Origin: a virus
Virus record (IMG/VR): IMGVR_UViG_3300014720_000002
Direction: 5' to 3' (one strand)
DNA length: 64,000 bases
Shown: in pieces, positions 3,221-55,593 of the stretch
How positions within the stretch are numbered: position 1 is the stretch's first letter
Layout: every line of letters starts with the position of its first letter
The notes under the pieces: model-generated
What the model saw: the letters and a program-made list of their open reading frames with translations, nothing else
What the model was told of the DNA's origin: nothing
The model's database searches: none
Translations under genes and position numbers: made by a program

Positions 3221-3472
3221 AGGAGCATAATCTGGCGGACCTGAGGTCTGCCCTGAAGGCGTCGGGTGTGTCGGCCAGGGATCGCGGCACGGTCTTGGAG
3301 TTCAAGTTCTCCCGGAATTTCGTGAGGCAGTTGGAACTGTTTGCTCCTGGGTGTGGCAGCCGGACCCATGTTCCTGGCACGAATGGCGGACAGATGGAGT
3401 GTGGCGCCTGGCTGACTTGGATGGACGGAACTCGCATCCAGCAGTTCTGTGGTTACTGTGAGTCTCAACTGA

Positions 3473-16013: not shown

Positions 16014-16760
16014 GTGTTGATGCACTGCTTTGGGAGATTCGGAGCAAGTTTGTTGAACTGTATGGAAGAGAGCCCATTATTGCCTGGGTCCGCCGGTGAC
16101 GGCTATGCCGCGCTGGCGGACGAGTGGATGGTGATTGGCGACGGAAAGCGGTTCAACTTTCTGGACCCCAAGCCGGAGGACATCAACATTGCGGACATTG
16201 TTCGCGGGCTGTCCAAGCTGTGCCGGTATTGCGGTCAATGCAACGGCTTCTACAGCGTGGCCCAGCATAGTGTGCTGGTGGCCAAGTGCGTGCCGGCGAA
16301 GTTCAAGCTGGAGGCGCTGCTGCATGACGCCGCGGAGGCCTACCTGGGTGACATCATCCAACCGGTGAAGCGGTTCCTTCCGGAGTTCCGTCGGATGGAG
16401 CATCATGTCTGGAAGGCCATTGCCGCTGCCTTTGAACTGCCGGAGCAGACGTCACCCGAGGTGAAGGAGGCCGACCGGCGGATGATGGTGACCGAGAAGC
16501 GGTCGCTGTTTCCGGCCCTTACTCCGGTGTGGCAGTTGGAGAAGCAGGGGGTCGTGCCTTATCCCGCGCTGCGGATTGTCGGACTCTCGCATGAATCCGC
16601 ACGCGAAGGTTTCCTGCTGTCATTCCACACGTATGTCCGGCTGCAGAAGGCGTTTCGGGACGGTCGTGTGTCTGTGTGCGACCGCTGCACCGAACTTGCG
16701 GTCGAGGATGCTACCGGCGTCTGTTTCAGCCAGGTTTGCCTTCCTTACGACAAAAGATGA
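16014..16760 (+). CDS. HD-domain phosphohydrolase, YfbR-like deoxynucleotidase family; true start probably 16128
   Basis: INIADIVRGLSKLCRYCGQ...FYSVAQHSVLV...ALLHDAAEAYLGDI..PVK...VKEADRRM. Confidence 0.88.
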   Translation: MLMHCFGRFGASLLNCMEESPLLPGSAGDGYAALADEWMVIGDGKRFNFLDPKPEDINIADIVRGLSKLCRYCGQCNGFYSVAQHSVLVAKCVPAKFKLEALLHDAAEAYLGDIIQPVKRFLPEFRRMEHHVWKAIAAAFELPEQTSPEVKEADRRMMVTEKRSLFPALTPVWQLEKQGVVPYPALRIVGLSHESAREGFLLSFHTYVRLQKAFRDGRVSVCDRCTELAVEDATGVCFSQVCLPYDKR

Positions 16761-18383
16761 GTGCTCAAATCGAGATGCCTGAATACTACCGGGCGCCGCT
16801 GACGGAGCGGGACGAAATAACGGCCTGGTTGCTGGATTACAACGCTCGGTCTTGGGACCGGCGAGGTGGTTTTGGCTACGAGGCGCAGCCGTTCTCCAAG
16901 GCAGGCTTCTCCCGCGGACCTTGGCTGTTCTGCTTCAACGTAAAGGTGCGCGCACATCTGGACTGGAGTCACGCTGGACTGCTGACCAGCGCGGTGCAGG
17001 CGGGTCACCTTGACCGTAAAACGGCGACCGATGCGCATTGGCTGTCCGAGACCGAACAGCGGCTGACCGATACGTCGGATGACGCCTTGTGGGATGCTGG
17101 CATTGAGGACAGCCGGGACGTGTTCTGCGGCCGGGACGGCAAGCCGGACGACGACGGCTACTCCATGCTCTGGGATGGCACACACGTCGATACCCGGTTT
17201 GCCTTTCTCGGCAGGTCCGGCGGCTGGCTGGCGCTGACCGGTTTTGAAGGCCACCGGCTGGCTGGAGATGCGGAGGAGGTGCTGGCTGAAATGTCGGATG
17301 AGTGTTTGCGGCGGCTGTATGCCTTTTTGGTGATGCTGCAGCACGACCTGGTCGGTGACCTACCCTCCCGGATGGTTCACGCAGCGGCGGCGTTTCACTT
17401 CTTCCACAATATCTGTGGCGACATCTGCCGGACGGAGGACTTGGTTGGAGCAGGAATCTGAGGTATGGAAGCTACTGAGATACTTAACAGTTATCTGAAC
17501 GTGGCGGAACCAGTTGCCCGGCGTTTGCTGGAGCTTGCCCGAGCCCAGGCTCACACTGACGCAGCGTGTAAGCAGGCGGCGGCTGAACTGGAAGTTTATC
17601 TGGAACGGTTCGACAATGACCGGTTGGTTCGCGATGCGGCCATCCGTGAACTGGCGGAGTCTAACTTGCCGCTGGCTGATGGTGAACTAGAGATGGACCC
17701 CAACGCTGTGGTCAGCGAAGGCGACGACAATGGTGCCTATGTCATGACGTGGTCGTGGGTGTCGTTTGCGGACACTGCCTTGGACAAGGAAAAAGACTAA
17801 TGAACGGACACGTATTTAGGGAAGTGCATGGTGTCATGGTGCAGGAGTTTGATCCTGTGTCGTGCCGGGTGGTGGGTATGCGGTTTCAGCCGGACGACGG
17901 CGAACATCGCTCGCTGGATGCCGTGTTTGACGAGATTGGGTTTGATGCTTCGGTGGACCAGCGCAGCCGCAAGGCGCTGCTGGCGCAGGACCTGCGCAAT
18001 CTGTTCATTCCGCGGCTGGTGGCCCAGACGGAGCGCAGCATGGTATGGCAGATCGACGAGCACATGGTCATGGTCGGACGGATAACCGCCACGGCTGACC
18101 GCAAGGCACAGGTGTTGCACGACGCTGCGCTCATCCCTGCGGCCGACTGGGAAGATCTCGGCTGGCCGGACGGACGCAAGCTGGATGCCTGGTGCAAAAA
18201 GAGATTCAAGCCGGCCAAGCCATGAGTGCTCAGACTATCTTTGAAGCGCATCGCCGCGAGTGTCCACTGACGGATGCCGAGGCGGTGGATGTGCTGTTGG
18301 AATACATCGACAACCAGGAGTCGCCCGAGGGGTTTTCCGACTTCCTGGACAATCGACCGCCGGACTGATGTCATGCGTTAGCC

Positions 18384-23530: not shown

Positions 23531-24391
23531 ATGATGAAAGAGAACAAGATGGTGATCGCGGTCACGTTGACCGCACCCCTGCTGGGCGGGCTGCCCTTCA
23601 GCGACATTGCGCAGGACCACCTGCGCGTCAAGACGGAGAAGGAGAACAAGAAGGACCTCTCCAACCTGGAGCCTCGCGTCGCGGAGGAACTGGCCGTCGC
23701 TGCTGCCCAGGCCGAGCAGCGCCGGTTGCAACTCCTGGCCGCTGGGCTGGACGCCGAAGAGGCGCGCGGCACCACCGGGTTTGCCCGTGACGACATGGGC
23801 TTGTTCGTGTGGGACTATTGGTTCCGTGGCTTCATCAAGGAAGCCCTGGAGACGGTGATCGAGTGCGGCTGTGCACCCGCCGGCTTCAACCCCTGGAACC
23901 GCAAGAAGAAGGTCGATCAGTTGATCTTCGTGGAGCCGCGGCGCATCTATCTGCGCAAGCCGTCAGCGGAGCGCACGGCGTCATCGTCCACGGTCTGGAC
24001 CGAATCCCCCGGTTTCAACACCCGGCCGATCCGGACGGAGGATCAGCGCACTGGCGCCCAGCGCACGGCCATCGCGCGCAGCGAGGAAGTGCCGGAAGGC
24101 ACCTGGTTCGTGGCCGAGTTGGTGTATCTTGGGCCGGAGGAGGTCAAGGTCAGCAAGAGCGGCAAGTCGCAACCGATCGTGACCAAGGAGTTGATCGCAG
24201 ACATCCTCACCTACGGCCGCCGAAAGGGTCTCGGTCAGTGGCGGTCTGGTGGCTGGGGCACGTTCGACTGGCAGGAGTTGCCGGACAACAAGCTGGTGAT
24301 CAAGGCGTCCCGTGGTGTCGCCTCCGTGCCCAAGCAGGGCATCCACATCGAATGCACTCCCGGCTGTCCCCAGCCGGCCGTTGCGGTCTAG
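23531..24391 (+). CDS. Orphan Cas7-like RAMP protein (candidate Vipr-type guide-RNA-binding effector)
   Basis: RAMP architecture: N-terminal IAVTLTAPLLGG, GTTGFARD..GLFVWDYWFRGFIKEA, DQLIFVEPRRI, RPIR...RTAIARSEEVPEGTWF, and a C-terminal glycine-rich loop YGRRKGLGQWRSGGWGTF. A/C-rich leader AAAACAAACAAACGGT before ATG 23531. Confidence 0.85.
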   Translation: MMKENKMVIAVTLTAPLLGGLPFSDIAQDHLRVKTEKENKKDLSNLEPRVAEELAVAAAQAEQRRLQLLAAGLDAEEARGTTGFARDDMGLFVWDYWFRGFIKEALETVIECGCAPAGFNPWNRKKKVDQLIFVEPRRIYLRKPSAERTASSSTVWTESPGFNTRPIRTEDQRTGAQRTAIARSEEVPEGTWFVAELVYLGPEEVKVSKSGKSQPIVTKELIADILTYGRRKGLGQWRSGGWGTFDWQELPDNKLVIKASRGVASVPKQGIHIECTPGCPQPAVAV

Positions 24392-28340: not shown

Positions 28341-28688
28341 ATGAAGCCGCCTTGCCATGCCTGCAGGGCGGTCTGCTGCAGGGACACGGGTGCTTGGCCG
28401 TTTGCCTGCGTGCTGAGCAGCCGTGATCTGCGGCAGCCGCATCTCCGCTCGGTGGCGGTGTGGCCCGCCGGCGGCAGCTTGGCGGTGCTGCCTTACAAGC
28501 ACGGTCGCTGCGTGTTTCTGAACCCGAAGACCAACCTGTGCCGGACTTACGCCGACAGACCGGAGGCCTGCCGTGACTTCGACTGCACGCAGTGCATTCC
28601 GGAGGGAGCGTTCCTGAAGACCAACCCTAAGGTGATCGACCTGATTGAAAATGAGCGACGAAAAGCTAAACCCAGAACAGGTCCGTGA
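28341..28688 (+). CDS. YkgJ-family cysteine-cluster (CxxCxxCC) protein
   Basis: PCHACRAVCC...GRCVFLNPKTNLCRTYADRPEACRDFDC. Confidence 0.8.
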   Translation: MKPPCHACRAVCCRDTGAWPFACVLSSRDLRQPHLRSVAVWPAGGSLAVLPYKHGRCVFLNPKTNLCRTYADRPEACRDFDCTQCIPEGAFLKTNPKVIDLIENERRKAKPRTGP

Positions 28689-31600
28689 GGCCATCCTGTC
28701 CGAGATGGCCCGGACGTTCTTTGTCACCGCCTACGCGGACGCGTGGGACAACAAGGAGCTTCCACCAACTGCACCTCACGCAGGGCCTGGCGACGAGTGG
28801 TTCGCTTGCGCTCCCGAGGAGACACCCCGCGCTGCGAGGGTGCTGGCTGAAAGCCTGGTGACGGCCATCGAGACACATGACGATGTGAAGGTGGAGGAGG
28901 TCTTTCAGCGCAACGCGGACCTGACCGAAGGCCATCTGAGCGAACCCACTCCGGACAGCTTCGGGTATTGCCTGGCCATGGAGTGCCTTGGGCATGGCGT
29001 TGGCTGGGGTGATGACCATCCGGAGCACAACCTCAACCTGCCGTATCTGGAGTGCTGGCTGGAGATCAGCATTCCGCCTTTGCCGATCACTGTGCGCAGT
29101 GACTGGATACTTCTGGACTCTCTGGAGGGTGGTCCTCTTTGGCTGACTATCGACCACACTGGCCACCGGTTCTTCGGCGATGAGGGCGTTCCGCCGCCGT
29201 TTCAGACTGTCTGCCGACCAGCCACCAAGCCATGATCCACATCGAAGTCATGGTTGAATCGCACCCGACGCTGATCTGCTGCCTTCACCGGCTGCCTGAT
29301 GGCGATCTGTTCAAACGCAAATACATCGGATACGGGCGGCGGGCCGCGGTGGCGCAGTTTCGTCGGGAAGTGCGGGAAGAACTGAGAAAGTTGAAAGCAT
29401 GAGCAATCCATTGGTCGAGAAGTTGAACGAGCAGGTGAAGTCGCTGTGCCAGTGCTGCCAAGACCGGCTGTGCGACATCGCCAGGCACGAGTCGGCCGTC
29501 AGACTGTGGCGGGACGAGTTTTGGCCAGGCACCCGGCTGGACACTGTGCGCGAACGGCTCCGTGAGGCGTTTGTTGGCATGGACCTGCGGCAGGGCACGC
29601 CCTATTTCCGGCTGCATGGTCGCCCAGTCATCAAATCGCCTGTCGAGCATCTGCCGGTGGCTCAGCTTACGGGTAGCCTGGCCGACACGCTGATATGGCT
29701 GGAGTTCCGCAAAAGTCAGCGGGACAAGCGGCAGGTCGCTGAAGCGGCTGCCATGCGGCGTGGCATCATTAGCCGGGAGCGGGATTGGCGGCGGCTGCCG
29801 CTGGCCATCCGCACGGCGGCAGCCGCCATCATTGAGGAACAAGAACATGCCACTGGCTAAGAAGTGCTGGCGCGCTCGGGTGCGCGAGATCTACGACAGT
29901 CCCGAGGAGTTGGAGGCGTATGACCGCAACTACCGCATCTGTGCCCGGCTGGGATTCTTAGATGTGGCTGAACTGTGGGAGACCAACCCTAAGATCGAAG
30001 GTTCGGTTTATCCTGCTGACTTGCGCGTGGTGCCTTCGCCAGACGCCAAGCGACAGCCGGTAAAGGTGCAGATCGAGCCGGAAGGTGCCGCGGGTCCGTA
30101 TCTGGTTGGGCTGTTGCCGAAGTCGATGAGCGGGGTGTCGGCGCGGGATATTGTGTTCCGGGTCAAGACGCGCAAGGACGACGGCTTCAAGATTCTCCAG
30201 GTGCTTACGGAGGGTCGTTGGCGTCCGGTGTGGGCCTGCAATCCGACATTCTTCAAGCAGCACTTCCGAGCAGTCAAATGAGCAGAAAAACTCACAGGCA
30301 GGACGCGTGGCGTGCGCATGAGGAGATGGCGGCGGCGCTGGCCAATGACATTGCCGAGGGGATCGATAATGGCGAGTCACGCAGGAAGCTGCGACAGGCC
30401 GTCACCTACTTCGCCATGAAGGCACATTACGAGCAGCAGGCCCGTCTGCTGGTTGAGAGCCGGCTGAAGGTCATGACACTCGGGTTGGAGTTGATGCAGT
30501 CGGTGGTGGTTAGATAAACGAAGTAAAACCATGTCAGAATACGATGTAGAAGTGACCCGCACGGCGGCTGAAACAAAGACGTTTCGCGTGATGGCCGAGG
30601 ACGCCGAAGCGGCCAAGGACAAGGCCGTGGAAGCCGCGGCCAACACGGTATTCAACAACCCCGGATGTCCGACCTACGAGGCGCTGCTTCCTTACCGTGT
30701 CTTGGGCCATCAAAAGTAGCATGAGCGAAACGACCAAGTTCAAAATGGAGTGCCTGGCCGAGAATGCGGCGCTGTTCCTGGAATGGCTACGCACGCGCGG
30801 CGGGCTGGCGATCTGGGAGAGTGCTGACTTTGGCCGGGCTGGTGAGTCTTGGACAACACCTGCCCGGACGGTCTGCGGAAAGGTCATGCAGAAGCCGTAT
30901 TGGTTCTGCAAATCCGAGCCGAAGCAGATCGTTGCAGATCCGGCCGAGGTGGGCGTGTTCACGGCGGCGCTGTTCAAGGAGTTTCCGGTGCGGTTGCGTG
31001 CTGCCCGAGGTGGATTGGTGTTCAAGCTGCAGGACTCCAGCCAGCGCAGCCTGGACCGGGTCATGCAGTCGTGTCGCAACAAGCATCCCGGTTGTGAGGT
31101 GTATTGGGAACGTGGCGGCATCGAAATAACGGATCGGCCGGCCATGCGTGTCTATTACGTCACCGGCGTGAGGCCATTGCTGGAATGGGCGGCAGAGAAA
31201 GGATTGTGACTTATGAGAATTCGATTGAGCCAGCAACATGGAGTCGCTCCGATGCTGACCTGCTGCCAGTTGTGCGGCGGGGATACGAACGAGTTGCTGT
31301 TGTTGGGCGCCAGTGCTGACAAGGTGTGTCGGGAGACGTTCGGCCAGTCTTATAGCGGCAGCAGTTGCCAGCGCATTCCGCACGGCATCTGCGACAAGTG
31401 CAAGGCGATGCTGGACGGCGGCGCTGCGTGCTACATCTGCCCTGAGCGCCAGGCTATCCTGATGTTCTCCGCGGAGTGCGTCAGCCGCAACGGCTGGCCC
31501 GGCGCTGGCAAGGTCTCCCGGCTTCGGCCTGAAGACATGGCGAAGCTGCAGGCGATGGTGGCTGAAGCGCCGGCACCTGGTGTCGAGCATGCAGCATGAA

Positions 31601-34564: not shown

Positions 34565-37533
34565 AACTGACCGAAGCACAAGAGCGCTGGCTGGCCGCGC
34601 TGGAGAGCGAACAGTATGCGCAATACACCGGCGCTCTTTGTCGTGTGGATGATGATGACTCCCGCAGCTATTGCTGCCTGGGCGTGGCTGAGATGTCGCT
34701 CGGGACCGAGACGGCCGGCCCGGTGGTGAGTGACGGTAAAAGGGTCATGTCGTTCTTGTCGCGTGACGAGGACGGCGATGTGGAGGATTCGGCACGATGT
34801 GCTGTGTTGTCTGAGTCTGTGTGTCGGCTCGGGTTGAGGTCTCCGACAGGGGAGATAGCACGGGAACACAAGGACGCATTTGACGCCGCGTTGCTGCGCC
34901 ACAGTCCTGACCTGCCGTTCAAGGAGCTAAAGCTGGCGGGTTGCCTGGCCAGTCTAAACGACAAGGTAAGGCCTCCGTTCAAAACCATCGCAGCGGCCAT
35001 CCGTGAGGTTCCCGAAGCAGTGTTTGAAGTATGCTAAAACCAAGTTTGTTCTACACCCGGCAGCCGCACGACGCGGTGATGTCGTCGAATGAGGCCCAGG
35101 TAACGGCCAGGCTGTGCATGAAGTGGCTGATGGAGCAGGGCGATCGCTGGCAGAAGATTCCTCTGCTGTTGATCAACCGCTTTTACCAGGAGGCTGGCGG
35201 CGACCGTAAGCTGTCGATGGATGAGCGGAAGGAGTTTCGCCGCTGGTGCGCCAGTCCCTGGCGGGCCATGGCGTTCTCGCCGGTTTGGTTGAACCTTGGA
35301 CTGGACAAGCTGAGCGTCTTCTTCGCGGCAGCACAGCCAGACGAGCTTCAGGCGTTCCTGGAGTTCCGCCGGCAAGGACTGCATCTGGTCGAGGTGGCCG
35401 AATTGGCCCGGCTGGCGCTGGCGGACGGTGACATGTTCGACAGCGCGGCGGATCAGATGGACTTGTCTGACGCCTACATGAAGAAGGTGCAGACTGGTCT
35501 GCATTACTTCTGCGGTCCCGACCATGGACGCCCCTACCGTTAAGGAACTGCTGCCGGTCATCACGGCGTTTGCCAACCGGCAGCCGATTCAGTTCCGCGA
35601 GCGCAAGACGGATGGCCTGGCCAAGCCGGGCCAGTGGGTTGATGTGAATCCCGACACCACGCAGTTCAGGCTGACGGAGTATGATCTGCTGGTGAGGGAC
35701 TGGAGGGTTAAACCTCAATGAGCAGAAAGCGCAGTCCAGCGAATAAACGTCGGCCGCGTGAGCAGGCGTTCAAGGTGGTGTGGGAGCTAGACCTGGTTAT
35801 GGCGCGGACCCCGCGCGCCGCCGCCGAACAGGCGTTCAAGATCATCCAGGAGCCGGGCACGGAGTGCACGGTGTTCCAGGTGCGCGATCAGTCGGGCAAA
35901 GTGCACGACATCGATCTGTCGGTTGCGGAAGAAGATACAAGCAAATGAACAATCCGAACGAAGCAGAAAAATCTGGGGCCAAGATGCTGGCCGACATCCA
36001 GGTCTGGTTGAAGGCGACCGGGATCGATGCCGCGATGGCGCTTATCGATCTGGTCCGGCGCGGAGAGATCGGTTCGTCCACGGCGGTTGATCCTGAGCAT
36101 GGCACCGTGTTTTTGCTGGCCATGGCGCCAGCGAACCGGCTCGGCTCGCTGGCAGGCATGCCGACCGGGATCCCGGGTGACACCCTGATTCCGATGCCGG
36201 TGGCGCAGCTACTCACGGGCGAACAGGCGCAACAGGTTTCTCAGGCCGGTGCCTCTGGCCGCATGGTGCTCTTCGATGCCACCGCGGCTACCCGCCAGCC
36301 CGCGGCGAATGAGCCGCCTGCGCCGTTCAGCAGCGAGCAGACGCAGGACTGGCGTTACGAGGTGGCCAACGGTGACACTGTGCTGGGTCTTTCGGAGTGG
36401 TGTGCCCATCAGCGGGAGAGCCGTGTCGCAGACAACGCCCAGCCAACGAATGAGCAAACCAAGTCCGGACAGCCGTGAGCAGATGCAGGAGGTCATGGTC
36501 AGGATGCAGGTTTCCCTGACCGTGCCGGCTCGGCTGTCCACCGACGAAGTTCGCCGGCTGGTGCAGCGGGGGCTGAACGGAATGTTTCCGGCTTACCACC
36601 GCCACTACCACCGGACGCAGTTCGCCGAGGAGGCCGACATCTACCGTCCGGAGACGGCCCACACGCGCTGGCACGAGGTGTTCCAGGCGGCAGAAGCAGG
36701 CCAGGACTGTTCGCTTACCCTGACGGAGGCCCTGGAGGCCCTGCGTCGTCCGCTGTCGATTACGGCCGCAGAGTGGCCAGCCGGCACGTCTTTGACGGAT
36801 GCCTGCCGCAAGGTGGAGAATCAACGGCTGCAGATGTGGCAGCATGTCATGGACACGCTGGGCGAGGCGCTGCCGTCGGTCTGGGAAACCATGCCGGGTG
36901 AGGCGGCGCGCTGCGTGTTTGTGGGCACCATGCAAGAGGTCAAGGAGTTCCTGGCAGGGCTTACTCCCCGAGAGGGAGCAAAGTTGGAGATCAGGCACAA
37001 AGGGACAGCGTAACATGAGCAAACCAACAGTCAGGTCGGTGAAGATGTGGGCGCCGGTTATCTGGAACGGCAAGAAGCGCGAGCCGGACTTCTCCACGCT
37101 CAGCCGCCGGCGCAAGGACGCCGAGCAGGTCAGCAATTATCCGCCGGTCCAGGTGGTGGTGCAGTGGGACGGCAAGATCGGCGGCTCCAGCTTCGTCACC
37201 CGGGTGATCTGGGTGCATCAGGTCGAGCTTGCCTTTGCCGGCGGCGAGAAGTTCCTGGGTATTGAGGCGGTGTGTCGCGGGCCGGTTGACCTGGGTCGCG
37301 GGGTCGCGGGGTCAAGGGGCTGATGGTGCGCAGTCCCATTACCGGCCAGGAGTATGTGGTCGAGGCTTCGGCGGGCGGCCTCGTCGGCACTTCTGTGGCT
37401 GTCATCAAGGCGGCTCTGGCGGGATGCAGCCGGGCTGAGGTCAAGGCGCAGCTTGCCAAAGGCCGGGAGCAGTTGCAGCGGGTCAGCCTGGCCGGCACGC
37501 CGGAGTTTTGGTGGGCGGTGGAGAAGATCGTTG

Positions 37534-37955
37534 GGTGATGGCGAGGCAGCGGCAGGTTCTGTTGCTCATTGGTAAGGTCCGTTAATGTCCGGCGCTGTGG
37601 AGTAAAGTGACGGTGAGGCTGGGCTGGGTCACGCATGGTGTTGGTATCGTCCCGATAGGTTACGTTCAGCAAGGTAGCGTGAAGGTGCAGCGCCGGTATG
37701 TCGGCGCCTGGTTTGATCTGGTCTTGCGCAGGTGGTGATCCGTAGCGTCAGGTGAAGTTTCGTCCGGGTGTGGCTCGTCAATGTCGCGCACTGTTCAGCG
37801 AAGGCACTGTGGATCTGGGCCTCGTTCTGTGGCGGTGTTGTGTTGTCCCGTGAGGTTTCGTATTGGTGCGGTAATGCACGCCTCGGCGCAGTGCCGGCAG
37901 GCTACGGTTAGGCCGGGCAATACAAGGCAACGCTTAGCAAAGGTTCAGCAACGCA
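37534..37955 (+). repeat. Degenerate NGY-NN pentamer array A (candidate VIPR-like guide RNA array)
   Basis: 81 pentamers from 37540, 69 exactly NGY. Units of 31,41,31,41,11,36,36,36,31,31,31,46 nt each start with GGY. Fills the gap from a stop codon (37536-38) to the next ATG (37956). Confidence 0.85.
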
Positions 37956-40900
37956 ATGAGCATATTCAATCCCAACGCACTCCCAGACCGGTCACCGATG
38001 GCCGCCATCCGGCCTGAGCACTGGCCGGAAACGCTGGCCGAGTTGTCCTGCCATGACGTGGTCGTGAACTCGGTGCTGCAGGCCAGCGGCCCGCATTATG
38101 CAAACCTGTCGGAGCAGGAATCACTGCGGCTGATGGTGGTGCTGATGGCGCAGCGGCATCAGCATGTGCTGGCGGAAGCCATAACGCAGGAATTCAAACG
38201 TGCTCCGCAGCCAATCGTGCTACCCCACAAACGAGATGATCAGAAAGTTCGGTGAAGGACTCAGCACCCGGCGCGAGACGCACGAGGAACTGGGCGGCGG
38301 CTACGGACCAGACAAGCACAAACCGCTGGTGGCGGAGTTCATCGCCAACGACCAGGTGCAGATCTGGCCCAAGCGTTCCAGCCGCAAAGTGCAGATCGGC
38401 CTGCTGGATCTCTACGCCATTATCGTGCGCAAGAACGCCAACCTGGCCACCCTGGAGAAGGCGCGGGATCGGAAAGCTAAAAAGGAGAGCCAGCGAAAGG
38501 CGCGGCAGATTGCCGCCGCGGATCGACGGCTGCGCAAGGCGGCCAAAACAAACCTATGTTGAGTGAACAAGAGCGGCTGTGCTACCGGTCGCTGAAGGAA
38601 GGCGAAATCATCCAGCATGGTGATTTGGAGCTTGGTGGCGGTGAGCACGACCACTGGACGCCCGTCCTTCATCGGATCGGAAGCCCAGCCCCAGCGCCGG
38701 AATATCCGGCCCACAGCAAGTTCCTGCGACGCATCCTGTGCGCCTGGAAAGCCGACGATGACGGTGTCCTGCATGCCGCCTGCGGACAGGCGTATTGCTT
38801 CGAGCACGAGTTCACCGTTGGTGGTGCCTACCAGTTCTGCCCAGGATGTGGAAAACCCATTCGCCTATGCCCACCAACCTTGATCCCGGAAAGCGAGAGT
38901 TGAAGCGCACCCAGCGCACCAAGCCATGCCACGACTGCCCGTTTGCCAAGCACACGGCACCTGGTGCGTTGGGCGGTTCCACCCCTGAGGTGTATATGGG
39001 GCAGATCCAGGGTCCGTTCTGGCTGCCCTGTCACAACAGCAGCGGCTACGAGGAAAGCCGACGCGACCCGGGACATGAGCAGTGCGCGGGTGCTGCCATC
39101 TTCCGGGCTAATACGGGGCTGGAGCAGTTGATGCCTTCGGCCTTGCTGCATCTGCCTGCGGATGACAGCCAGGTGTTCCGAGGACCGGTGGAGTTCCTGC
39201 AGCACCATCTGGGCTTTACGCCGGAGCAGGTGCTGGCCTGGTTTCGCGCCAACCCGCCACAGAAGCTGCTGCAGGACGAGCTTGCCAAACAGGAAGCACA
39301 GGTGATGTTGCTGCCCAAGAAACCATGAGCGACCTCAAAACCTACGGCAAAGGCACCCGGGTCATGTGCGACCACCATTTCAGCGGCAAGCCGCGCGGCG
39401 TGGTGGTGGCCGTGCTGGAGCCTGGGCGGGGTAGCAGTGCCACGGAAGGCCGGATTCAGGTTCGGCTGACTGAGACGGTTGGGCCTTGGAAGAAAGGCGA
39501 GCTTCGGGAACTGCCGGCCTGGCTGGCGGTGCCACTGGCTCAGCTTCGTCCGCCGCGCGCTGGCGAGTTTTTCACCCGCGTCCTCACCGACTATCAATGG
39601 GCATGAAACAACTGAGCGACCTACAGCCGGAGCCATCCGTGGTGGATGCCAAGGTGGATGAGGTGCTCATGCCTGGCCAACTGAGCCAGGCGGAAGTGAA
39701 GCAGGCCGCCGACAAGGCGGGTCGTGACAAGCTGCGCGTCCAGGGTGCGGCGATACGGATGATTTTCAGTGGCCTTGGTCCGACGAACGACTGGTTTTCT
39801 CATTATGACTGACCGAAAGTTTTACTACCGGGAGTTTCTCATCCGGGTTGTCTCACCTGAGCCGGTGGATTCCATTGATGCGCTGCAGCGGGTGCTGAAC
39901 GATGAGCAGATGGGTGTCTGGTGCTCGCGCGAGCCTCAGCCCGCCCGTATGCTGGACGGCAAACAGACGGCTGACGAATTGAAGCAGATGGGGGCCACGC
40001 CACCGCTCTTCGACCTCGACGACGCCGGCAACGATCTCGATCCGGACGAGTGAACACCATTTTCGATGTTTATCGCCATGGCGCCAACCTCGGTTGGTCG
40101 GCTGACCAGGTGGTGACGGAGGTGCAGCGGCGGTTTAAGGCTGGCACCAAGCTGGGCGCCAACCATCTGCGCAAGCAGTATGCCGACACGGTGATGATGG
40201 ACCGGATCCAACTGCTGGCCATGTGCAAGGACCTGCGGGCCGTGTTGCACAGCTTCAGCCCGGACGGTCGTCCGCATGTGCCGTCGCTGGAAGATCCAGC
40301 CTGGCCGATGGTGCCGGCGGCGCTGCAGTCCAGCGCGGAACTGATTCAGAAACTAACCCCGACCGAAAATGAGTGATCCGATTGAGCATGCCGTGGCCGG
40401 ACTGTTACAGAAGGCCATCGACGAAGGCACCAAGGAAGCGACCCATGCTGCGGTGGAGATGATGTCGGCGGCCTGTGGTTACCTGCTGCCCCGGGTTTCT
40501 TCCGTGGACGTGAACTTGAAGAACGGGCATGCGCGCATCGAGTTTCATTCTCCATGGCGGTCGCTCAACCGCAAGCCGTTGCCGAAGACGCAGCAGCGGG
40601 TGGCTTTACTGAAGGTGCGGCTTGCCCTGACCAGGTATTTCCGGCTGTTCCCACAGTCTGCCGTGCCTCCGATCTCGGTGGTCAACTGCCCGACCTGTAT
40701 CGGCCGAGCGCCCATCAAATGTGCGGAAATGGCCTGGCAGGAGTGGCGTCAGCGGTGCACCAAGGTGGTGCAGGACGCCATCGACCAGAAGGGCTGGGTG
40801 GCTGGCTCGCTGGATGTGGACAAGGCCCATGGGCGGCGGGTGGAGATTCACGGCTATCTGATCGACGCCAAGACCGCCAAGCCGGTGAGCGCCGTCGAAT

Positions 40901-45973: not shown

Positions 45974-48373
45974 CTGCATGAACTACATCTCGGACGGGAC
46001 AGTGATCGATCAGCGCACCTACGACGGGCTGTGTGACATCTTCAACCGGGTGGCGAGCCATCTGCTGAAGCAGGCCCGGCGAGCCGTTGCGCACTCGGCC
46101 ACGGGCGGGATGGGCTGCCGCTATCGGTTGTGCGACGGACGGGCCTGCGCGGTCGGTTGTCTCATCACCGATCAGAATTATCATGACGGGCTGGAGCGCA
46201 AGAATTCCGATGACCCGCTGGTTGTTTCCGCCGTGACGGCCAGCCTCGGCCGGTCGCTCACCAAGCATGAGCAGCAGTTGCTGGAAGCGCTGCAGCATGT
46301 GCATGACATCGACCTGGCGACCTGGGGCGATGATTCCGGCATCCCAGCTTGGTCGATCGTGGCGTCGCTGAACCGGGTGGCGCACCGGTTTGACCTGCCT
46401 GGACTACCGAAACCCAAAGACGCACCAGCCGGCGTATGAGCACTCCGAGACTGGAAATTCGGCAGCTTGGTCTGACGCACGTCACCCAAAGCTGCCCGTG
46501 GGGCCTCTACAGCCGTCACGGGCATCGACTGCTGTGCTCGGACGGACAGGTGCGCGCCGCCACTCTCGCCTCTACCCCGGACACGTTCTTCAGCGTGCCG
46601 GCGTCGGTGCGGGTGAAGGGCAAGACTGTCTCGGGCTACATGACGGTTGAGGAGGCTGGTGGCGGCAAGCTGCGTGCCTACGTGTTCCGCCATCATACGG
46701 CTCACCGGGACAAGCTGCCGGCCTGGCCTGACCGGTTCACTCCGGAGCATGAGAGGCTGGTGAACAGTGTGATTACGCATGATCAATCAAAAGGAACTGA
46801 CCGCGCTGGTCGCTGAGGGGGCGACGCTGCTGGCGGTGTATCGGTTGCGGGAGGATGGCGATGGCGATTTCATCGCCTTGTTCGACATCGAGAACTGCGC
46901 GGAGCGGTTCGCCGACAATACCGGCGACGGTGCGGCTGTGTTGGCTGCCGTTGTTCAGGCCGGCCTTGCGGACGACGGCGAGGAAGCCGTGTGGGTCTGC
47001 TTCCAACGGATGGCTGATGTGGTGGACATTCTGGAGGGAGCCCAGGAACGGTGGGAAGCTCAACGTGAAAAGCCGCACAACCCCGTGCCGTGAATGTCCC
47101 TGGCGCCGAGCTTCGGCGCCAGGATGGCTGGGTAGCGAGCAGACGCCGGAGGAGTGGGTGAAGACAGCGCATGGTGAGGTGACCGTGGAATGCCACACGG
47201 AAGCGCCCAAGCTGTGTGCTGGCATCGCCATTTACCGCACCAACGTCGCCAAGAAACTTCGCAACGCCAGCGTGCCCATCCTGTCCGGCGATAAGTCTAA
47301 GGTGTTTGCTACGCCGGCGGAGTTCATCCAACACCACCGGTCTGGTGTGGTCAGCAGTGAGATCAAAACATGAGCAAACTTGATGCAGCGGTCGAAGAAG
47401 TGCAGCGCGCTTTGGAAGGGTTCACCGAGGACTGCTTGACCAATCATCCGGAACAACGGGTGGAACTGGAGGCGGCCTGGTTGCTTATCCGGCGTCGGCT
47501 GTTGCGCCTTCCCTCAGATGGGTTGCGATGTGGGGAGCGGTTGTATCTGGATGGCAATCTGCATGCGGTCTGCACTCAGCCAGGAGGGGTTGAGCACACG
47601 CATCACGATCTGGACGCTCAGCAGGCCATCGCGGCAGGGCTGGCCCGTCCGGCCTCGGACACAGATCGGCCGCATGCGCCAAGTGAGGTGCAGAACCAGC
47701 AGGTGGCTGAGTGGCCTTGGCAGGATGCCGGGGTGCATCCATTCTCTCCGCATGAACTTGGCCTGAGGGATAGCGAGGGCGCGCAAGACTGGATCAGCAA
47801 TGATGAGTTGGTAGGGTTGTCGGAGGCCCGCCCTGGCGGCATCATCGGCTACATTCATCGACTGCACGCCGACCGGATTGCCGGTCTTTTGAACCTGGCC
47901 GGGATGGTGGTTGAGAACGAACATGATTAACATGGTGGAACACATTCGGGCAGACCGGCGGTTGACTGCCCAGGCCAAGGTCAGTCAATTCTCTTGATCT
48001 ACATGACCACCGAGGAACTCTTCGACGCGGTGGCGCCCATCGCCATCTACCACTGCACGGACGTGCGGTTCCAGCAGCGGGCCAAGGTTGGCCTGCGCAA
48101 GCTGAAGGCTGCCGGAGTGCAGCTTCCGGACGAACCGCTGGATGATTTGGCTGACTGGGCCAAGGACGAGCACGACCGGCTGTTCATTGAGATCGTCAGC
48201 GATCTCGCCCCGGAGTGGACCTGGGATTACGACCGCTGGGGTGCCAAGGCATGGAAAGATGAACGCGGCGCGCTGGTGTTCGCCGGTGACGCGCACGATC
48301 AGTTTCCTTGGTATGAGACGGCGGCTCTGCTGAAGGAGCGGGTGCTGGAGCATCAACTGGAGGGAGCGACGGC

Positions 48374-49030
48374 GTGAACGACGAGCAACTGATCAGTTTG
48401 ATGGACAAGGTCGCGGAGGATCACGCCAGCCGAGGGCAGACCTACGCCGGCGGACCCTATCGCAAGCACCTGGAGGATGTGGAGCGCCTGCTGAGGACCG
48501 CCTGTAACGTCGCCTGGGTGGAAGAGGAGTCGGTCGGCGCTTTGCTTGCCGCCGGCATCCTGCACGACTGGTTCGAGGACTGCTTTGACGGGTCGCACAA
48601 GTTCTCACACTGGCGCCTGACCGGAACGCTGATTGACTGGCAGGGTGAGTTTGGCGTGCCAGCCGTCAGCCTGATGATGGCGCTGCGCTGCTCCGATCCG
48701 CCCGGCATGTCGCGACGTGAGGCCAAACGGGCTATCTTGCCGGTTATCGTGGCCTGCGAAGGTGCCCGGGCAGTCAAGCTGGCTGATCGGATGGCGAATC
48801 TGGAGCAGAGCATTGCTGACCGCAATCGAAAGCATCTGGAACGCTACATTGAAGAGGCTAGGCAGTTAGCGCCGGTGGCGGACCAGCTTGAGACTCCGGT
48901 TGATGCAGTGCAGGAGACTCGACACTACGCCCCGGTGCGAGACTACTTGGCTGGTTGCTATGCGGATGTCCTGGCTCGGGCCGCCGAGAGTTTTCATACT
49001 CTGCGCGGCCCGACCAATGCGGTGAAGTGA
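48374..49030 (+). CDS. RelA/SpoT-type HD-domain (p)ppGpp hydrolase-like protein (small alarmone hydrolase-like)
   Basis: H..GQTYAGGPYRKHL..V...AAGILHDWFEDC...EFG...RAVKLADRMANL. Confidence 0.78.
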   Translation: MNDEQLISLMDKVAEDHASRGQTYAGGPYRKHLEDVERLLRTACNVAWVEEESVGALLAAGILHDWFEDCFDGSHKFSHWRLTGTLIDWQGEFGVPAVSLMMALRCSDPPGMSRREAKRAILPVIVACEGARAVKLADRMANLEQSIADRNRKHLERYIEEARQLAPVADQLETPVDAVQETRHYAPVRDYLAGCYADVLARAAESFHTLRGPTNAVK

Positions 49031-49376
49031 CGGTATTGGAACGCTTAGCCGCGTGCCGCCATGCCTAGCACAGGCTACGTGCGGTCCGGTCAGGTCTCGT
49101 AATGGTAAAGTGACGCAAAGTCGGGCTTCGTCGAGCGATGGCCGGGTGTGGTCAAGCAGGGTGTGGTGGTTCAAAGTTAAGGTGTCGCGTCGCCTAGTCA
49201 GGTCACGCGCCGGCAATGGATGGTGCCGTCCGGTTTAGCAGCGCAGCGGCATAGTGACGAAAAGGCCTGTAACGTGAAGCACAGGTAAGGTGCCGTGAGG
49301 CATGGTGAGGTCTGGCACAGGTAAAGCAGAGTCACGCGGGGTCCGGTTCAGGCGAGGATAGGTGGAGTCACGCAGC
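49021..49376 (+). repeat. Degenerate NGY-NN pentamer array B (candidate VIPR-like guide RNA array)
   Basis: 69 pentamers, 68 with central G, 63 exactly NGY. Units of 11,41,31,36,41,31,36,36,36,31,26 nt, all starting with GGY. Ends directly at ATG 49377. Confidence 0.9.
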
Positions 49377-50708
49377 ATGCAGATTCGATTGAAAGAACGC
49401 TGGCAGGCGTGGGTGGAGGTGTGGACCGCCATCCGCGCCTGCCATGCCGGCAGGAACGAGAAGCTGGAGGTGCGGCGCACCGGACAGGTCTGGGACGTCG
49501 GTGCCAGACAGTATCGCGAGCGGCTGGAGTTCCGGGCCGCCGACAACCCCGGCTGGGAAGGCTACAACCGCTCCCGGAACCTGCTGGCGACGAAGGTGCC
49601 GCGCCTGTCCAAGGCGCTGGAAAAGTTGAAGTGGATATGAGCAAGAAGACGATGACCCTGGTGGTCGAGATCGAGTATGATGGGTTGGAAGGACCGTTCC
49701 GACCTGCCCTGGTGAACAAGCTCAAGGACCGGCTGCACGCCATGGTTGAGCGCGAGGCTGGCGAGGGCGGGCTGTCGCCGGACGATGGCAGTGTGGCCGT
49801 GGCAAGCTGGGACGCCCGGGTGGCTGATGGGCCGCTCACGCTGCTGAACCCGGCGCAGGTGCGCGATCTCAGCAAGCTGCTGGATTACACTGAGGCGGAT
49901 GAAGAGCGACACTACGAGGAGAGCAAACCCTGCCGCAACCACATCTGGCATTCGATTCGCCGGCTGAGGAAAGCTACACCCGAACCATGAACCTTTACTC
50001 ATTCGGAGCCGCGGCCAGGGAAGGCGCCTGCCGAGCAACCTGGGACCCTAAGCACAGCAACTTCGTGATGCACATCTGGCAGAAGGGTAAGCCGACGCCC
50101 ATCGCCACCTGCCGGGATACCACGCAGGAGAAGTGCGAGGCGGCGGCGCGGCAGGTCAAGGAGGCGCTGGAGCTTCAGGCGCGGCTGGAGTCGCCGGAGT
50201 TCAGCGCCGCGCTTAGGCTTGCCCTGGAGGGCACGCTGACTACCCGGCTGCGTTCGGTGCACGGGCTGGACCCGTTCTCACGGAAGCGCACCAAGCGCGC
50301 GGCTGAGTTGGAAGTCGAGTTCTTGGTTGGCGCCATGAGCGCCATCAACGCGACGTTTCCTGGGCGTGACTCCGAACTCAGCAGCAAGGTGCCGGTTTAT
50401 TGGCCCATGTGCCTTATGAGTGGGCGCTCGGTGCTGCAGTCCGCGAAGAAGTCATGAAGCCACTATATTACTACGTCCTCATCGACAGTGAAACCTTGGC
50501 GCGGTTGCAAGCACGGGTTGCCACCAGGTTCCGATTCCACGGGCGCATCCAGGTATTTCGGATCGAGCGCAACCAGGTGATCAAGGCAGAGAGTCTCTGC
50601 ATCCAGTGCCCAGACCAGTTGTCCGCTGAAGTGCGGGATGATCTGCTCAGCTTTGTGGCTGGTTTCGTTGAGGGGGCCGACCTGCAGTCATCGACCGCCC
50701 ACCTGGGT

Positions 50709-50736
50709 GTAACGGAGCCGTCGGTTGTGACATAAG
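50709..50736 (+). promoter_or_regulatory. Class I promoter GTAAC-N18-ATAAG
   Basis: Exact 18-nt spacing; followed by a structured leader and ATG at 50800. Confidence 0.7.
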
Positions 50737-51194
50737 ATGGTGAAGGAAGAGCTTCCTTTACCGGCAGTGTTGCCGGGCAACCATCAACGAAAGCCAAGTA
50801 TGAAAGCACTGTGGAACCACCTGAGAATCGATCAACGTGCCGCCCTGGCCACTGCCTTTGGCGTGGTCTTGATCGTGGCCATCGGCCTGCTGCTCGCCCG
50901 TTACGGCGTGCCGGGCAGCCAGAATGCCGGGATCGTCCGGCTGTCGGTTGAACTGCCGCCGGGTCAGTCCCGTGCGGAGATCCTCCTGCCGGGCGGCTCG
51001 TCCGGTAGCTGGGACGAGATCCAGCAGATGATCAGCAGCATCCGCATCACGCGGAATGACGGCAGCACGCGGGACTTCAGTCCCCATCAGTTCGACAAGC
51101 TCAGCCAGGAGACACACGCGTTCCGGGAGGTCACGTTAATCACGACCAACCACGCCAGGATCACTTTGGCCAGGCAACCTTGAACGCAGCGAAC

Positions 51195-51250
51195 GGCCCG
51201 CTGCCGGTCCAGTAGGATCGGCAGCGGGCCGGTTATCCAATCCTTTAGTT
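51195..51250 (+). terminator. 16-bp hairpin followed by CCTTTAG
   Basis: GGCCCGCTGCCGGTCC-agta-GGATCGGCAGCGGGCC (one G-U pair), then TCCTTTAGTT at 51241. Confidence 0.6.
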
Positions 51251-52012
51251 TATGGGTGTGCATCAGCGTAAATTCGGGAAGGAGAATCCTCTCAAGTTCG
51301 ATTGCGTCACGTTCATGACGCTGGCGACCAGGCATCGCTTTCGCGAGGTAAGCGGCTGGTTTCCGCAGGAGGAAGAAACCTACCGTCTGCCGGCTGAACT
51401 GCAGTTGGCCAACTGGTATGGTAATGCGCCGCAGCAACCGGATCAGGCGGCCATGCAGCATGATGAGTCGGCTGACCTGGACGCGCTGGCCGATGTTACT
51501 CGACCGTTCGGCTCCGAGCGGTGGCATGACTTTGATCGTCTGCCATTGGCAGAGCGGTTGGAGGCTCTGAAGCTGTTCTACGATGATCTCACCTGCGACC
51601 TGCAGTCGCTGCGGCAGAGATTCAAACCGGAGGAGGTAGAGAACTACACCGGCCCTGACAGTCCTGCTGCTGAGTTGAAAAAGCTGGTCCGTTACCGGCA
51701 ACGTGTGGCGCGAAAAATCGAGCGCGTGCGCCGCACGATCGACAAGCAGGAAAAGCTACGGCTGCAGATGCAGGCGTCGCGCGACCGCCTACGGATTGTT
51801 TGGGAGAGGTCGGACCGCGCTAAGGAGGAAAAGCAGGCGTCGGCGAAATGGCAGCGTCAGTTGGAGTTGCTGACCTATCTCGCCGAGGCCAAGGCGAAGA
51901 GCGATCACTACGCCAACAAATCCCGGAGGCACAGCCCGCAGGCTGCCATGGCTGATCGTGGAAGTCAGGCACTCGGCGGGTAAAACCGAGTGCCAACAAA
52001 AGTAAAAAATCT

Positions 52013-52312: not shown

Positions 52313-53404
52313 ACTATGAGTAAGTCGGAGAAGCTGAGAAAATTGGCCAACGCCGTTCGGCGTTACCGCGGCCTGCTTGGATCGCCTGGGCATGACGGCG
52401 TGGTCCGGTGGAAGCAGCCACCCATACCTTCAGCCAAGGACGATGTCCGGCGCTGGCTGGGCAGGCTGGGCCTGGATGTGGAAGCGCATCTGCGGCGTGT
52501 GGACGAGTTTCCTTCGCTGCAGCAGTTCGCGGAATGGCTGGAAGAGTTGGAGAATGGCAATGAGCACGTTGTGGCAGGAACTTCGGAAGTGGGAAAATCA
52601 TGAAAAGAAACTGGCTGATCAGGCATTACCAGGCGGCGCTGGTGTTCGCGAGCCGGACCCGCAATCGCCCCCTGTCCGACTACGTTCGACAGGAGTTGAA
52701 AAGGTGGTCGGCGGCACCGTCCTCTGGAAGCCGGTCGATCGCCTAGCGGCTAAGATGCTGGCCAAGTCGCCCTGGTGGGCGCAGCCAGTGCATGTGCCGA
52801 CACCGCCACCAGCGGCGCCGGCTGCAGTTGAGAAGGCAAAAAAGAAGAGAACACACAAGATTATGGGAGACAACGCTGTCATTGTGGAGACAGGAGACAA
52901 GCGTGCGCCACAGGATGTCCGTCCGCGGATGAACGACGCGAGCTACACGAGCGCATGCGGGCTGGAGGTGCACCGGATCAACGGGCAGGACATGATTTCG
53001 CTGGAGAGTGCGCAGACTGTCCTCTGTGCCGAGATTGCGAAAATGCCCAAGGAGACGCGACCGCTGGTTTTGGCCGCCCAGGACGCCCGACGGATCGTTA
53101 ATGAGTTGACGGACGGCATTGGCGCCGATCAGGAAAAGTTCAGGGTCAGTGCCAAGATGTTCCTGGAGGATGTCCGCCAGACCCGGTTTGCGGTGGTGCA
53201 GGAGGCCAGCGCAATGATGACGCCATTGCGCGATGTCCGCACTTTCTTCCTGGGGCCGGATTACAAGGAGCAGGTGACCAGGTTGAAGGAGTTCGTGGAA
53301 CTTTGCGAGCGGCTGCAGAAGCTCAAGGAGTCGGGTTTCCTGGATAACGTCGCGGACACCATGCTGCGACTGGCAGATCGGCCAGCCACCGGCGCCTGAT
53401 TGAA

Positions 53405-53486
53405 TGCGCTGTGGTGCTTGGAAAGGTCTCGTGCGGTCGCGTTAAGTCACGGTCCAGTGAGGGCGTGGCAAAGTCCTGCGCGGAAC
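53405..53486 (+). repeat. Short NGY-NN pentamer array D
   Basis: 16 pentamers, all with central G, 14 NGY; two 6-nt phase steps at 53451 and 53462, each followed by GGY. Starts 6 nt after the stop at 53399. Confidence 0.7.
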
Positions 53487-53529
53487 CGCACCAGTTGGGC
53501 TTCGGCCCGCTGGTGCGGTTTCCTTTAGC
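53484..53529 (+). terminator. Nested hairpin (11-bp outer stem plus GGGC-UUCG-GCCC) followed by CCTTTAGC; closes array D
   Basis: AACCGCACCAG / CTGGTGCGGTT is a perfect stem. Confidence 0.7.
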
Positions 53530-53540
53530 CATCCACTCCC

Positions 53541-53568
53541 GCAACCAAGCACGCCGCTGTGTCATAAG
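53541..53568 (+). promoter_or_regulatory. Class I promoter GCAAC-N18-ATAAG
   Basis: Exact spacing; lies upstream of the MYG1-like gene. Confidence 0.7.
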
Positions 53569-53647
53569 CCTTTGGACAGGACTGTTTCTTGTCTGGGAGC
53601 ATCCGGCCTCCAACCATTTAAGCAACTGCCGGAAGGAGAACTGTAAC

Positions 53648-55208: not shown

Positions 55209-55593
55209 GGTAAAGCAAAGGTGAGGCGAGGTGTAGCATCGTTGCGTGCGGTTCAGGTGTAGTGCCGTGAAGATGGGTAATGTAAAGCGCCGGCGAGGTG
55301 ATGCTTGGTGTGGTGGCATCGCGTTTGGAACAGTATTGGAGACGCGGCGCACAGCATGGTAGCGCAATGTGGTGGCGTCGTATCGAGGCGCTGAGTATTG
55401 GCCTGGCACGGCGGCGGTGGGCACCGTAAAGCTACGGCATGGTCACGTCAGGTTCAGTGCAGCACAGGTAACGCGACGCAAGGTTCGGTTTCGTGCTGTC
55501 ACGTATCGGTTTGGGTGGGTCGAGCGCTGGGCTGTCAGGCAAAGGCGAGGCGGGGTCTGGTCCGGTTTCGTTACGTCGTGCGCTGTGCCGACG
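55209..55593 (+). repeat. Degenerate NGY-NN pentamer array C (candidate VIPR-like guide RNA array)
   Basis: 75 pentamers, 74 with central G, 66 NGY. Units of 11,36,36,46,36,26,36,31,41,36 nt plus a final ~50-nt unit. The upstream TAA (55211-13) is embedded in the first pentamer. Confidence 0.9.

What the first reader, a model, noticed from the sequence alone, without database searches (positions are those of the whole stretch)
49021..49376. Array B: the cleanest array, fitted exactly between a stop codon and an ATG
Seen: 68 of 69 triplets have the central G, for example ggt aa|ggt gc|cgt ga|ggc at|ggt ga|ggt ct|ggc aca (49284). It ends ...cgc agc|ATG at 49377. Nine complete unique units. This is the best candidate for experimental work.
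Basis: seen in the sequence. Interest (0 to 1): 0.85.

Follow-up and report, generated by a model that had tools for sequence, protein, structure and literature searches.

The report
Phage VIPR guide-RNA array (staggered)
This 345-base gap between two phage genes is very probably a string of about ten short guide RNAs for the phage's own Cas7-like Vipr protein, a new example of the CRISPR-related VIPR systems first described in 2026; what the guides target is still unknown.

Summary
From 49022 to 49372 a G recurs every 5 nt (68 of 69 positions), followed by C/T in 63 of 68. The register slips +1 ten times, and ten tiles of 26-41 nt fill the gap between TGA (49028-30) and ATG (49377). The chain score is 50.5; shuffles reach 13.5 at most.

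It matches the "staggered", YNNNG-type vrRNA array of VIPR systems (bioRxiv 10.64898/2026.04.26.720920). The same 168-kb phage contig encodes a Cas7-fold protein (23531-24391). Its G-loop aligns with that of the phiSUSP1 Vipr. In 78 of 80 IMG/VR loci encoding relatives of this protein, a same-strand staggered array lies within the 4 kb fetched on either side, mostly directly next to the gene. Here the four arrays lie 13-31 kb from the gene.

Three related phages carry array B at the same position. Some units are 100% identical, although the neighbouring gene is only 63-74% identical.

Substitution patterns suggest three informative letters per repeat, not two. I found no convincing target and had no expression data. 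The scan has already noted VIPR-like pentamer arrays in at least 260 other genomes.

Verdict: a new member of a known kind, of moderate interest.

The parts
49022..49376 (+). Array B: staggered vrRNA-type array with motif N-G-Y-N-N, 68 invariant G and ten +1 register slips. It fills the gap between the TGA at 49028-30 and the ATG at 49377.
49032..49072 (+). Unit 1, 8 repeats, 41 nt. Conserved in L012, L013 and L014, with changes mostly at the Y position.
49073..49103 (+). Unit 2, 6 repeats, 31 nt
49104..49139 (+). Unit 3, 7 repeats, 36 nt
49140..49180 (+). Unit 4, degenerate: 6 repeats, then the one missing G (T at 49170) and a lone hexamer
49181..49211 (+). Unit 5, 6 repeats, 31 nt. Its decoded triplets match 17 of 18 bases in L098 (a lead only).
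49212..49247 (+). Unit 6, 7 repeats, 36 nt. Its first six repeats are conserved in L012 and L014.
49248..49283 (+). Unit 7, 7 repeats, 36 nt
49284..49319 (+).
49320..49350 (+). Unit 9, 6 repeats, 31 nt. It is 31 of 31 identical in L013 and L014.
49351..49376 (+). Unit 10, 5 repeats, 26 nt. Its GGTGGAG also sits where a ribosome-binding site for the ATG at 49377 would be.
23531..24391 (+). vipr: 286-aa Cas7-fold RAMP with G-loop GLGQWRSGGWGTF, the presumed partner acting in trans
48374..49030 (+). Upstream gene, 218 aa, matching phrog_990 (annotated metal-dependent phosphohydrolase). It is the syntenic anchor of array B in related phages.
49377..49640 (+). Downstream 87-aa ORF with no family match
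37494..37958 (+). Array A, 85 G, less regular
53406..53509 (+). Array D, a short chain of 21 G in the 248-nt gap before the likely ATG at 53648 of the MYG1-like gene. L013 has a counterpart just upstream of its MYG1-like gene.
55210..55590 (+). Array C, 74 G. L012 and L013 carry an array at a similar place, just downstream of their AcrVA2-like gene.

Best explanation
Array B is a staggered array of about ten vrRNA guides belonging to a VIPR system. Inferred steps: it is transcribed on the + strand together with the flanking genes. Protomers of the phage's Vipr protein (23531-24391) each bind one 5-nt repeat. The invariant G and the following pyrimidine are held by the G-loop (W237, R238) and the thumb. 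The other three bases (positions 4 and 5, and position 1 of the next repeat) are presented for pairing. An extra G every 5-8 repeats shifts the register by one base; this ends one short filament and starts the next, so the transcript yields guides of 26-41 nt. By analogy with the tested type II VIPR, each complex then binds matching double-stranded DNA and silences transcription, most likely in a rival mobile element. Shown here: the sequence pattern, the Cas7 fold, the G-loop match to the phiSUSP1 Vipr, the gene-array association across the clade, and strong conservation of some units. Not shown: transcription, processing, binding, the pairing rule and the targets.
For: Pattern and significance.

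Published class: vrRNAs with GGY/NN repeats, the alternative YNNNG, NNNGG and NNNNG repeats, and 'staggered arrays' offset by 1 nt. One Vipr protomer binds one repeat.

Partner protein:
- The AF2 model has pLDDT 76.
- All top Foldseek PDB hits are Cas7/Csm3, E 1e-7.
- A profile of the family hits a PDB Cas7 G-loop at E 0.002.
- hhalign to the phiSUSP1 Vipr (KT454805.2, 28474-29061, minus strand) gives E 3e-4. It aligns SUSP1 G-D-W-R with our invariant G-Q-W-R. In SUSP1, D177 reads G1, W178 stacks on G2 and R179 holds Y3. D to Q fits the relaxed first G here.

Association: staggered same-strand arrays directly flank the homologues in L002, L003 and L004. They also occur in 78 of 80 IMG/VR loci encoding relatives.

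Conservation: array B sits at the same place, starting 3 nt after the stop codon, in L012, L013 and L014. Shared units are up to 31 of 31 identical, while the flanking gene is 63-74% identical at the nucleotide level.

Other points: unit lengths of 5n+1 nt do not keep a reading frame. The RNA is no more structured than its shuffles, z +0.81. No guide matches the phage's own genome better than shuffled controls do, as the preprint reports for VIPR.
Against: No natural target was found under any pairing rule tried. No vap gene was recognised next to vipr. The arrays lie 13-31 kb from vipr, which is unlike 78 of 80 relatives. There is no conserved 3' tail such as type II vrRNAs have. Each unit has only 5-8 repeats, against 9-16 in the tested systems. 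The hhalign match to the SUSP1 Vipr is short (46 columns, probability 39%).
Confidence: 0.85

Rival explanations
1. The arrays are 'solo' or decoy vrRNAs whose main role is to load and redirect the Vipr proteins of rival phages, rather than to arm this phage's own Vipr. This has been shown for satellite-encoded vrRNAs.
For: Solo vrRNAs that redirect a foreign Vipr are described in bioRxiv 10.64898/2026.10.15.759431. The arrays here are not adjacent to vipr, unlike in 78 of 80 relatives.
Against: The same genome carries an intact vipr of exactly the clade that is associated with this array type. Close vipr homologues (75-86% identity) exist in other samples. The two roles are not mutually exclusive.
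Confidence: 0.1
2. The array is a binding track, on RNA or single-stranded DNA, for some other oligomeric protein that reads one G per 5 nt. Examples would be a TRAP-like ring or a nucleoprotein filament used for regulation or packaging, unrelated to Vipr.
For: A triplet plus a 2-3-nt spacer resembles TRAP sites (from my own knowledge). Four arrays are spread through one co-directional gene block.
Against: The triplets are NGY, not GAG/UAG. The pattern travels with the Vipr gene in 78 of 80 loci from unrelated phages. No other candidate protein was seen, and Rfam finds nothing.
Confidence: 0.03
3. The array is a decayed pentanucleotide microsatellite or an unrecognised coding region with no function as RNA.
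For: An ORF of 61 aa (49053-49238) overlaps the array. A gene caller placed an 82-aa gene inside the L012 array.
Against: One position is invariant and the next is nearly fixed, while three vary freely. Unit gains and losses of 5n+1 nt break any reading frame. Some units are far better conserved than the flanking gene. Neutral decay would not keep 68 of 69 G.
Confidence: 0.01

Closest known systems
VIPR systems with staggered vrRNA arrays and YNNNG-type repeats (bioRxiv 10.64898/2026.04.26.720920, fig. S18 and methods)
   Same: Phage-encoded. A lone Cas7-like Vipr. 5-nt repeats with a fixed G and a pyrimidine and hypervariable other positions. Guides abut with a 1-nt register offset. No CRISPR repeats and no other cas genes.
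   Different: All four arrays lie 13-31 kb from vipr, wedged between ordinary genes. No vap gene was recognised. The preprint's main text names this array class but gives no tested targeting rule for it.
Type II VIPR of Escherichia phage phiSUSP1 and the P. fulva prophage (the tested systems; also 10.64898/2026.04.26.720927 and 2026.10.15.759431)
   Same: RAMP fold and a G-loop G-x-W-R motif that aligns. One protomer per 5-nt repeat is expected. The RNA is read on the same strand as vipr.
   Different: SUSP1 vrRNAs are about 100 nt, with 9-16 GGY/NN repeats, a structured 3' tail with a pseudoknot, and a vap1 gene next to vipr. Here the units have 5-8 repeats and no tail. The first G is not fixed. 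The G1-reading Asp is Gln. Three positions per repeat, not two, behave as informative.
Class 1 CRISPR crRNA bound by a Cas7 backbone
   Same: A Cas7-fold protein is expected to polymerise on a guide RNA and periodically flip bases out.
   Different: The period is 5 nt, not 6. There are no direct repeats or spacers and no Cas5, Cas6, Cas8, Cas1 or Cas2. The guides lie head to tail without repeats.
TRAP-binding RNA of the Bacillus trp leader (from my own knowledge)
   Same: Triplets separated by 2-3-nt spacers, read by an oligomer.
   Different: TRAP triplets are GAG/UAG and number 11. Here there are 68 NGY triplets, and the pattern is tied to a RAMP gene. This is only a formal resemblance.

Membership tests
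VIPR system | A Vipr protein: a minimal RAMP with an RRM core, a glycine-rich loop and a thumb | tested here: met
   The AF2 model gives only Cas7/Csm3 as top PDB folds, E 1e-7. The G-loop GLGQWRSGGxGRF is invariant in 18 homologues. hhalign to the phiSUSP1 Vipr gives E 3e-4 over the G-loop.
VIPR system | vrRNA made of tandem 5-nt repeats with conserved G(G)Y and hypervariable other positions | tested here: met
   G at 68 of 69 positions and Y at 63 of 68; positions 1, 4 and 5 vary. The variant matches the YNNNG form named in the preprint's methods.
VIPR system | Staggered array architecture: successive vrRNAs offset by 1 nt | tested here: met
   Ten +1 slips, each reopening with GG, and tiles of 5n+1 nt. 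The figure legend is quoted.
VIPR system | Compact locus: vipr flanked by the vrRNA-bearing intergenic regions, usually with a vap gene | tested here: not met
   The nearest array starts 13.1 kb downstream of vipr. The neighbours of vipr have no DNA-binding or nuclease family hit. In 78 of 80 relatives an array lies within the fetched flanks of the gene.
VIPR system | Encoded by a phage or provirus | tested here: met
   A 167.6-kb virus record with split RNA polymerase beta and virion-protein hits.
VIPR system | vrRNAs are expressed as small RNAs and co-purify with Vipr | not testable with these tools
VIPR system | Guides match DNA of rival mobile elements under a gapped code (1-nt skip in type II), with no self-targets | tested here: inconclusive
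   There are no self-targets beyond shuffled controls. No convincing external target was found under the NNx, NNN, NNNx or NNNxx rules.
Type II VIPR (SUSP1 clade) | About 100-nt vrRNAs with 9-16 GGY/NN repeats and a conserved structured 3' tail | tested here: not met
   Units have 5-8 repeats with no shared tail. The fold z-score is +0.81. The SUSP1 vrRNAs with tails are seen.
CRISPR-Cas | A direct repeat-spacer array plus cas genes other than a single RAMP | tested here: not met
   There are no direct repeats in the region, and the units are unique. I did not run a genome-wide cas gene scan.

The most novel reading that the evidence does not exclude
This Vipr clade has Gln in place of the G1-reading Asp in its G-loop. 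It may read three letters per 5-nt repeat, with only G and Y sequestered, which would be a different code from the published two-letter, 1-nt-skip rule. Array B would then hold guides kept nearly unchanged across at least four distant large phages because they are aimed at a conserved, still unidentified target. Support: position 1 behaves like positions 4 and 5 both where guides are conserved and where they diverge. Also, 5-10 repeats of 3 letters give the same 15-30 informative bases as 9-16 repeats of 2 letters. The spacing on the target (contiguous or gapped) is not resolved.
Probability: 0.45. Interest if true: 0.6.

Novelty: new member of a known kind. Interest (0 to 1): 0.42.

Why it matters
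VIPR systems were described only in 2026, and only type II has been tested. This locus gives a clean, compact test case for the untested staggered YNNNG class: ten guides in 345 nt. It comes with a defined partner protein, a large natural family (at least 526 relatives in IMG/VR) and orthologous arrays in three related phages. It also shows that vrRNA arrays can be scattered far from vipr between ordinary genes, so searches limited to the neighbourhood of vipr will miss them. The Asp-to-Gln change in the G-loop, paired with loss of the first fixed G, is a concrete hypothesis for how the code was widened from two letters to three. It could be tested by mutagenesis.

Tried and rejected
- Rfam, tRNA scan, Tandem Repeats Finder and a promoter/terminator scan found nothing useful in the array.
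- BLAST of 46000-52000 against GenBank phages gave no match. The search for related loci with the 218-aa protein in IMG/VR found no relative.
- Coding reading of the variable triplets: no stop-codon depletion (23 observed, 29 expected, p 0.11) and no codon-usage signal (z 1.2).
- Exact target scans:
  - Unit 49032 as NNx in IMG/VR gave 7 hits, which look like chance. Only L010 is GC-rich and in frame, and no second guide converges on it.
  - The 10-repeat units of arrays A and C as NNx gave 0 hits in IMG/VR, in the metagenomes (C only) and in the species genomes (A only).
  - Conserved units read as contiguous NNN gave 0 hits.
  - Unit 55467 as NNx gave 32 hits in about 14 AT-rich lineages, including a MazG-like gene. 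I judged these chance hits for an A-rich, codon-like pattern.
- Cross-search of 476 guides from 86 sources (85 loci plus this genome) against 1.28 Mb of fetched DNA showed no excess over shuffled controls under any rule.
- The best single hit was unit 49181 at 17 of 18 bases in L098. It lies antisense in a DUF932 gene, and about one such hit is expected by chance.
- The second RAMP-like gene (genome 164416-165342) was rejected as the array partner. Its profile match is weak (E 0.003, probability 10%). Its homologues sit in a fixed SbcD-SbcC-x-helicase block with no arrays.
- The genome search cannot draw relatives for a virus record or for these loci. No supplementary files of the preprint are held.

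Full report
**Observation.** The gap between the TGA at 49028-49030 and the ATG at 49377 carries a G at every fifth base. A chaining script finds 68 G from 49022 to 49372, with 56 steps of 5 nt, ten steps of 6 nt and one step of 10 nt. The step of 10 is the single missing G. The next base is C or T in 63 of 68 cases. Positions 4, 5 and 1 vary. Each 6-nt step shifts the register by +1, and the next unit reopens with GG. Ten tiles of 41, 31, 36, 41, 31, 36, 36, 36, 31 and 26 nt exactly fill 49032-49376.

Over the whole 167,647-bp genome only four such chains exist. All are on the + strand and all lie inside the window: A 37494-37958, B, D 53406-53509 and C 55210-55590. Their scores are 49, 50.5, 16.5 and 56.5, against at most 13.5 in shuffles. 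No chain exists for any other base. Tandem Repeats Finder and Rfam report nothing.

**What it is.** A first-stage note on this genome used the word VIPR, so I read the papers. VIPR systems pair a minimal Cas7-like protein, Vipr, with vrRNAs built from 5-nt repeats, GGY plus NN. One protomer binds one repeat. The tested type II systems bind double-stranded DNA by a gapped code and silence transcription. The preprint also names YNNNG, NNNGG and NNNNG repeats, and 'staggered arrays' in which successive vrRNAs are offset by 1 nt. Array B fits the staggered YNNNG description.

**The partner.** The ORF at 23531-24391 (286 aa) has 18 homologues with an invariant G-loop, GLGQWRSGGxGRF. Its AlphaFold model (pLDDT 76) returns only Cas7/Csm3 chains as top PDB matches, at E 1e-7. 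A profile of the family touches a PDB Cas7 G-loop at E 0.002.

I fetched phiSUSP1 (KT454805.2). Its Vipr locus is the 195-aa gene at 28474-29061 on the minus strand, flanked by GGY/NN tracts with tails. hhalign aligns its G-loop GVGDWRPRFGRF with ours at E 3e-4. In SUSP1, D177 reads G1, W178 stacks on G2 and R179 holds Y3. Here W and R are invariant and D is replaced by an invariant Q. That agrees with the loss of the first fixed G (inference).

**Association.** Homologues on three unrelated contigs are directly flanked by staggered arrays on the same strand. One of these arrays uses G-A instead of G-Y. IMG/VR holds at least 526 relatives. Among the best 80 loci, 78 carry a same-strand staggered array, mostly starting within about 100 nt of the gene. 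In this phage no array is adjacent to vipr: they lie 13-31 kb downstream, each wedged between ordinary + strand genes.

A second RAMP-like ORF (genome 164416-165342) is only weakly similar. It sits in a conserved SbcD-SbcC-x-helicase block without arrays, so it is not the partner.

**Conservation.** The upstream 218-aa gene (phrog_990) led to three related phage contigs and one near-identical contig. In each of the three related contigs an array starts 3 nt after the stop of that gene, with 91, 126 and 136 G. Units are gained and lost as whole blocks, but several are shared. Unit 49320-49350 is 31 of 31 identical in two relatives. L012 and L014 share 70 consecutive pentamers with 13 differences. 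The flanking gene is only 63-74% identical at the nucleotide level. This points to strong purifying selection or to recent exchange of guides.

**How many letters per repeat.** Within this phage group, aligned pentamers differ at G2 0 times, at Y3 48 times and at positions 1, 4 and 5 23, 29 and 27 times, out of 250. Between repeats with unchanged positions 4 and 5, Y3 changed 19 times and position 1 only 5 times. In 13 independent pairs from the wider clade the counts are position 1: 53, G2: 0, Y3: 22, position 4: 36 and position 5: 53, out of 604. Position 1 therefore behaves like positions 4 and 5 in both settings. With 5-10 repeats per unit, three letters give 15-30 informative bases. That is similar to 9-16 repeats of two letters in type II. 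I conclude, with moderate confidence, that the code has three letters per repeat. The spacing on the target is unresolved.

**Targets.** No guide matches the phage's own genome better than shuffled controls do. Exact scans of IMG/VR, JGI metagenomes and species genomes with decoded units gave nothing or chance-like hits. A cross-search of 476 guides against 1.28 Mb of fetched DNA showed no excess under four rules. One 17-of-18 match of unit 49181 to a DUF932 gene in L098 is a lead at chance level.

**Other points.** The array RNA is no more structured than its shuffles, z +0.81, and has no tail. Unit lengths of 5n+1 nt rule out a conserved reading frame. Expression could not be examined.

**Verdict.** This is a new member of the VIPR class, of the staggered YNNNG kind. 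Its unusual feature is that the arrays are dispersed far from vipr. The scan has already noted VIPR-like pentamer arrays in at least 260 other genomes.

Noticed in passing
genome G000:C1:164416-165342 (L016:617-1543), outside the window: A second ORF with a RAMP-like C-terminal G-rich loop (GLSPFGSKFGFGRF). Its homologues of about 170-210 aa always sit between SbcD/SbcC and an SF2 helicase in phage replication modules, with no pentamer arrays nearby.
   Followed up: partly
L004:2881-3251 (relative of vipr at 3280-3927): A Mu-like phage contig carries a staggered array with N-G-A-N-N repeats, a purine after the fixed G. Its Vipr G-loop reads AGFGQWR instead of KGLGQWR, which may reflect a change in the pocket for position 3.
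   Followed up: no
L012:13074-14135 and 16039-17094; L013:17442-18491: In the related phages, precomputed Pfam hits label the ~350-aa genes near the array C counterpart as AcrVA2-like (PF26125). The window's 340-aa ORF at 52377-53399 gave no Pfam hit in my scan.
   Followed up: no
window 4129-7296: A 1055-aa ORF matches the RNA polymerase beta subunit in its first half. It also has short matches to thymidylate synthase and terminase PHROGs further on, which may be an intein or homing-endonuclease insertion.
   Followed up: no
window 53411-53647: The longest ORF of the MYG1-like gene starts at 53411, but a good ribosome-binding site and ATG lie at 53648. The 5' 240 nt are probably non-coding and hold the short array D.
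   Followed up: partly
L098:956-973 (IMGVR_UViG_3300033485_000083): A GC-rich phage contig that has its own Vipr and a 163-repeat array carries a 17-of-18 match to the decoded unit 49181. The match is antisense in a DUF932 gene (phrog_1362), and this phage has no DUF932 gene.
   Followed up: partly
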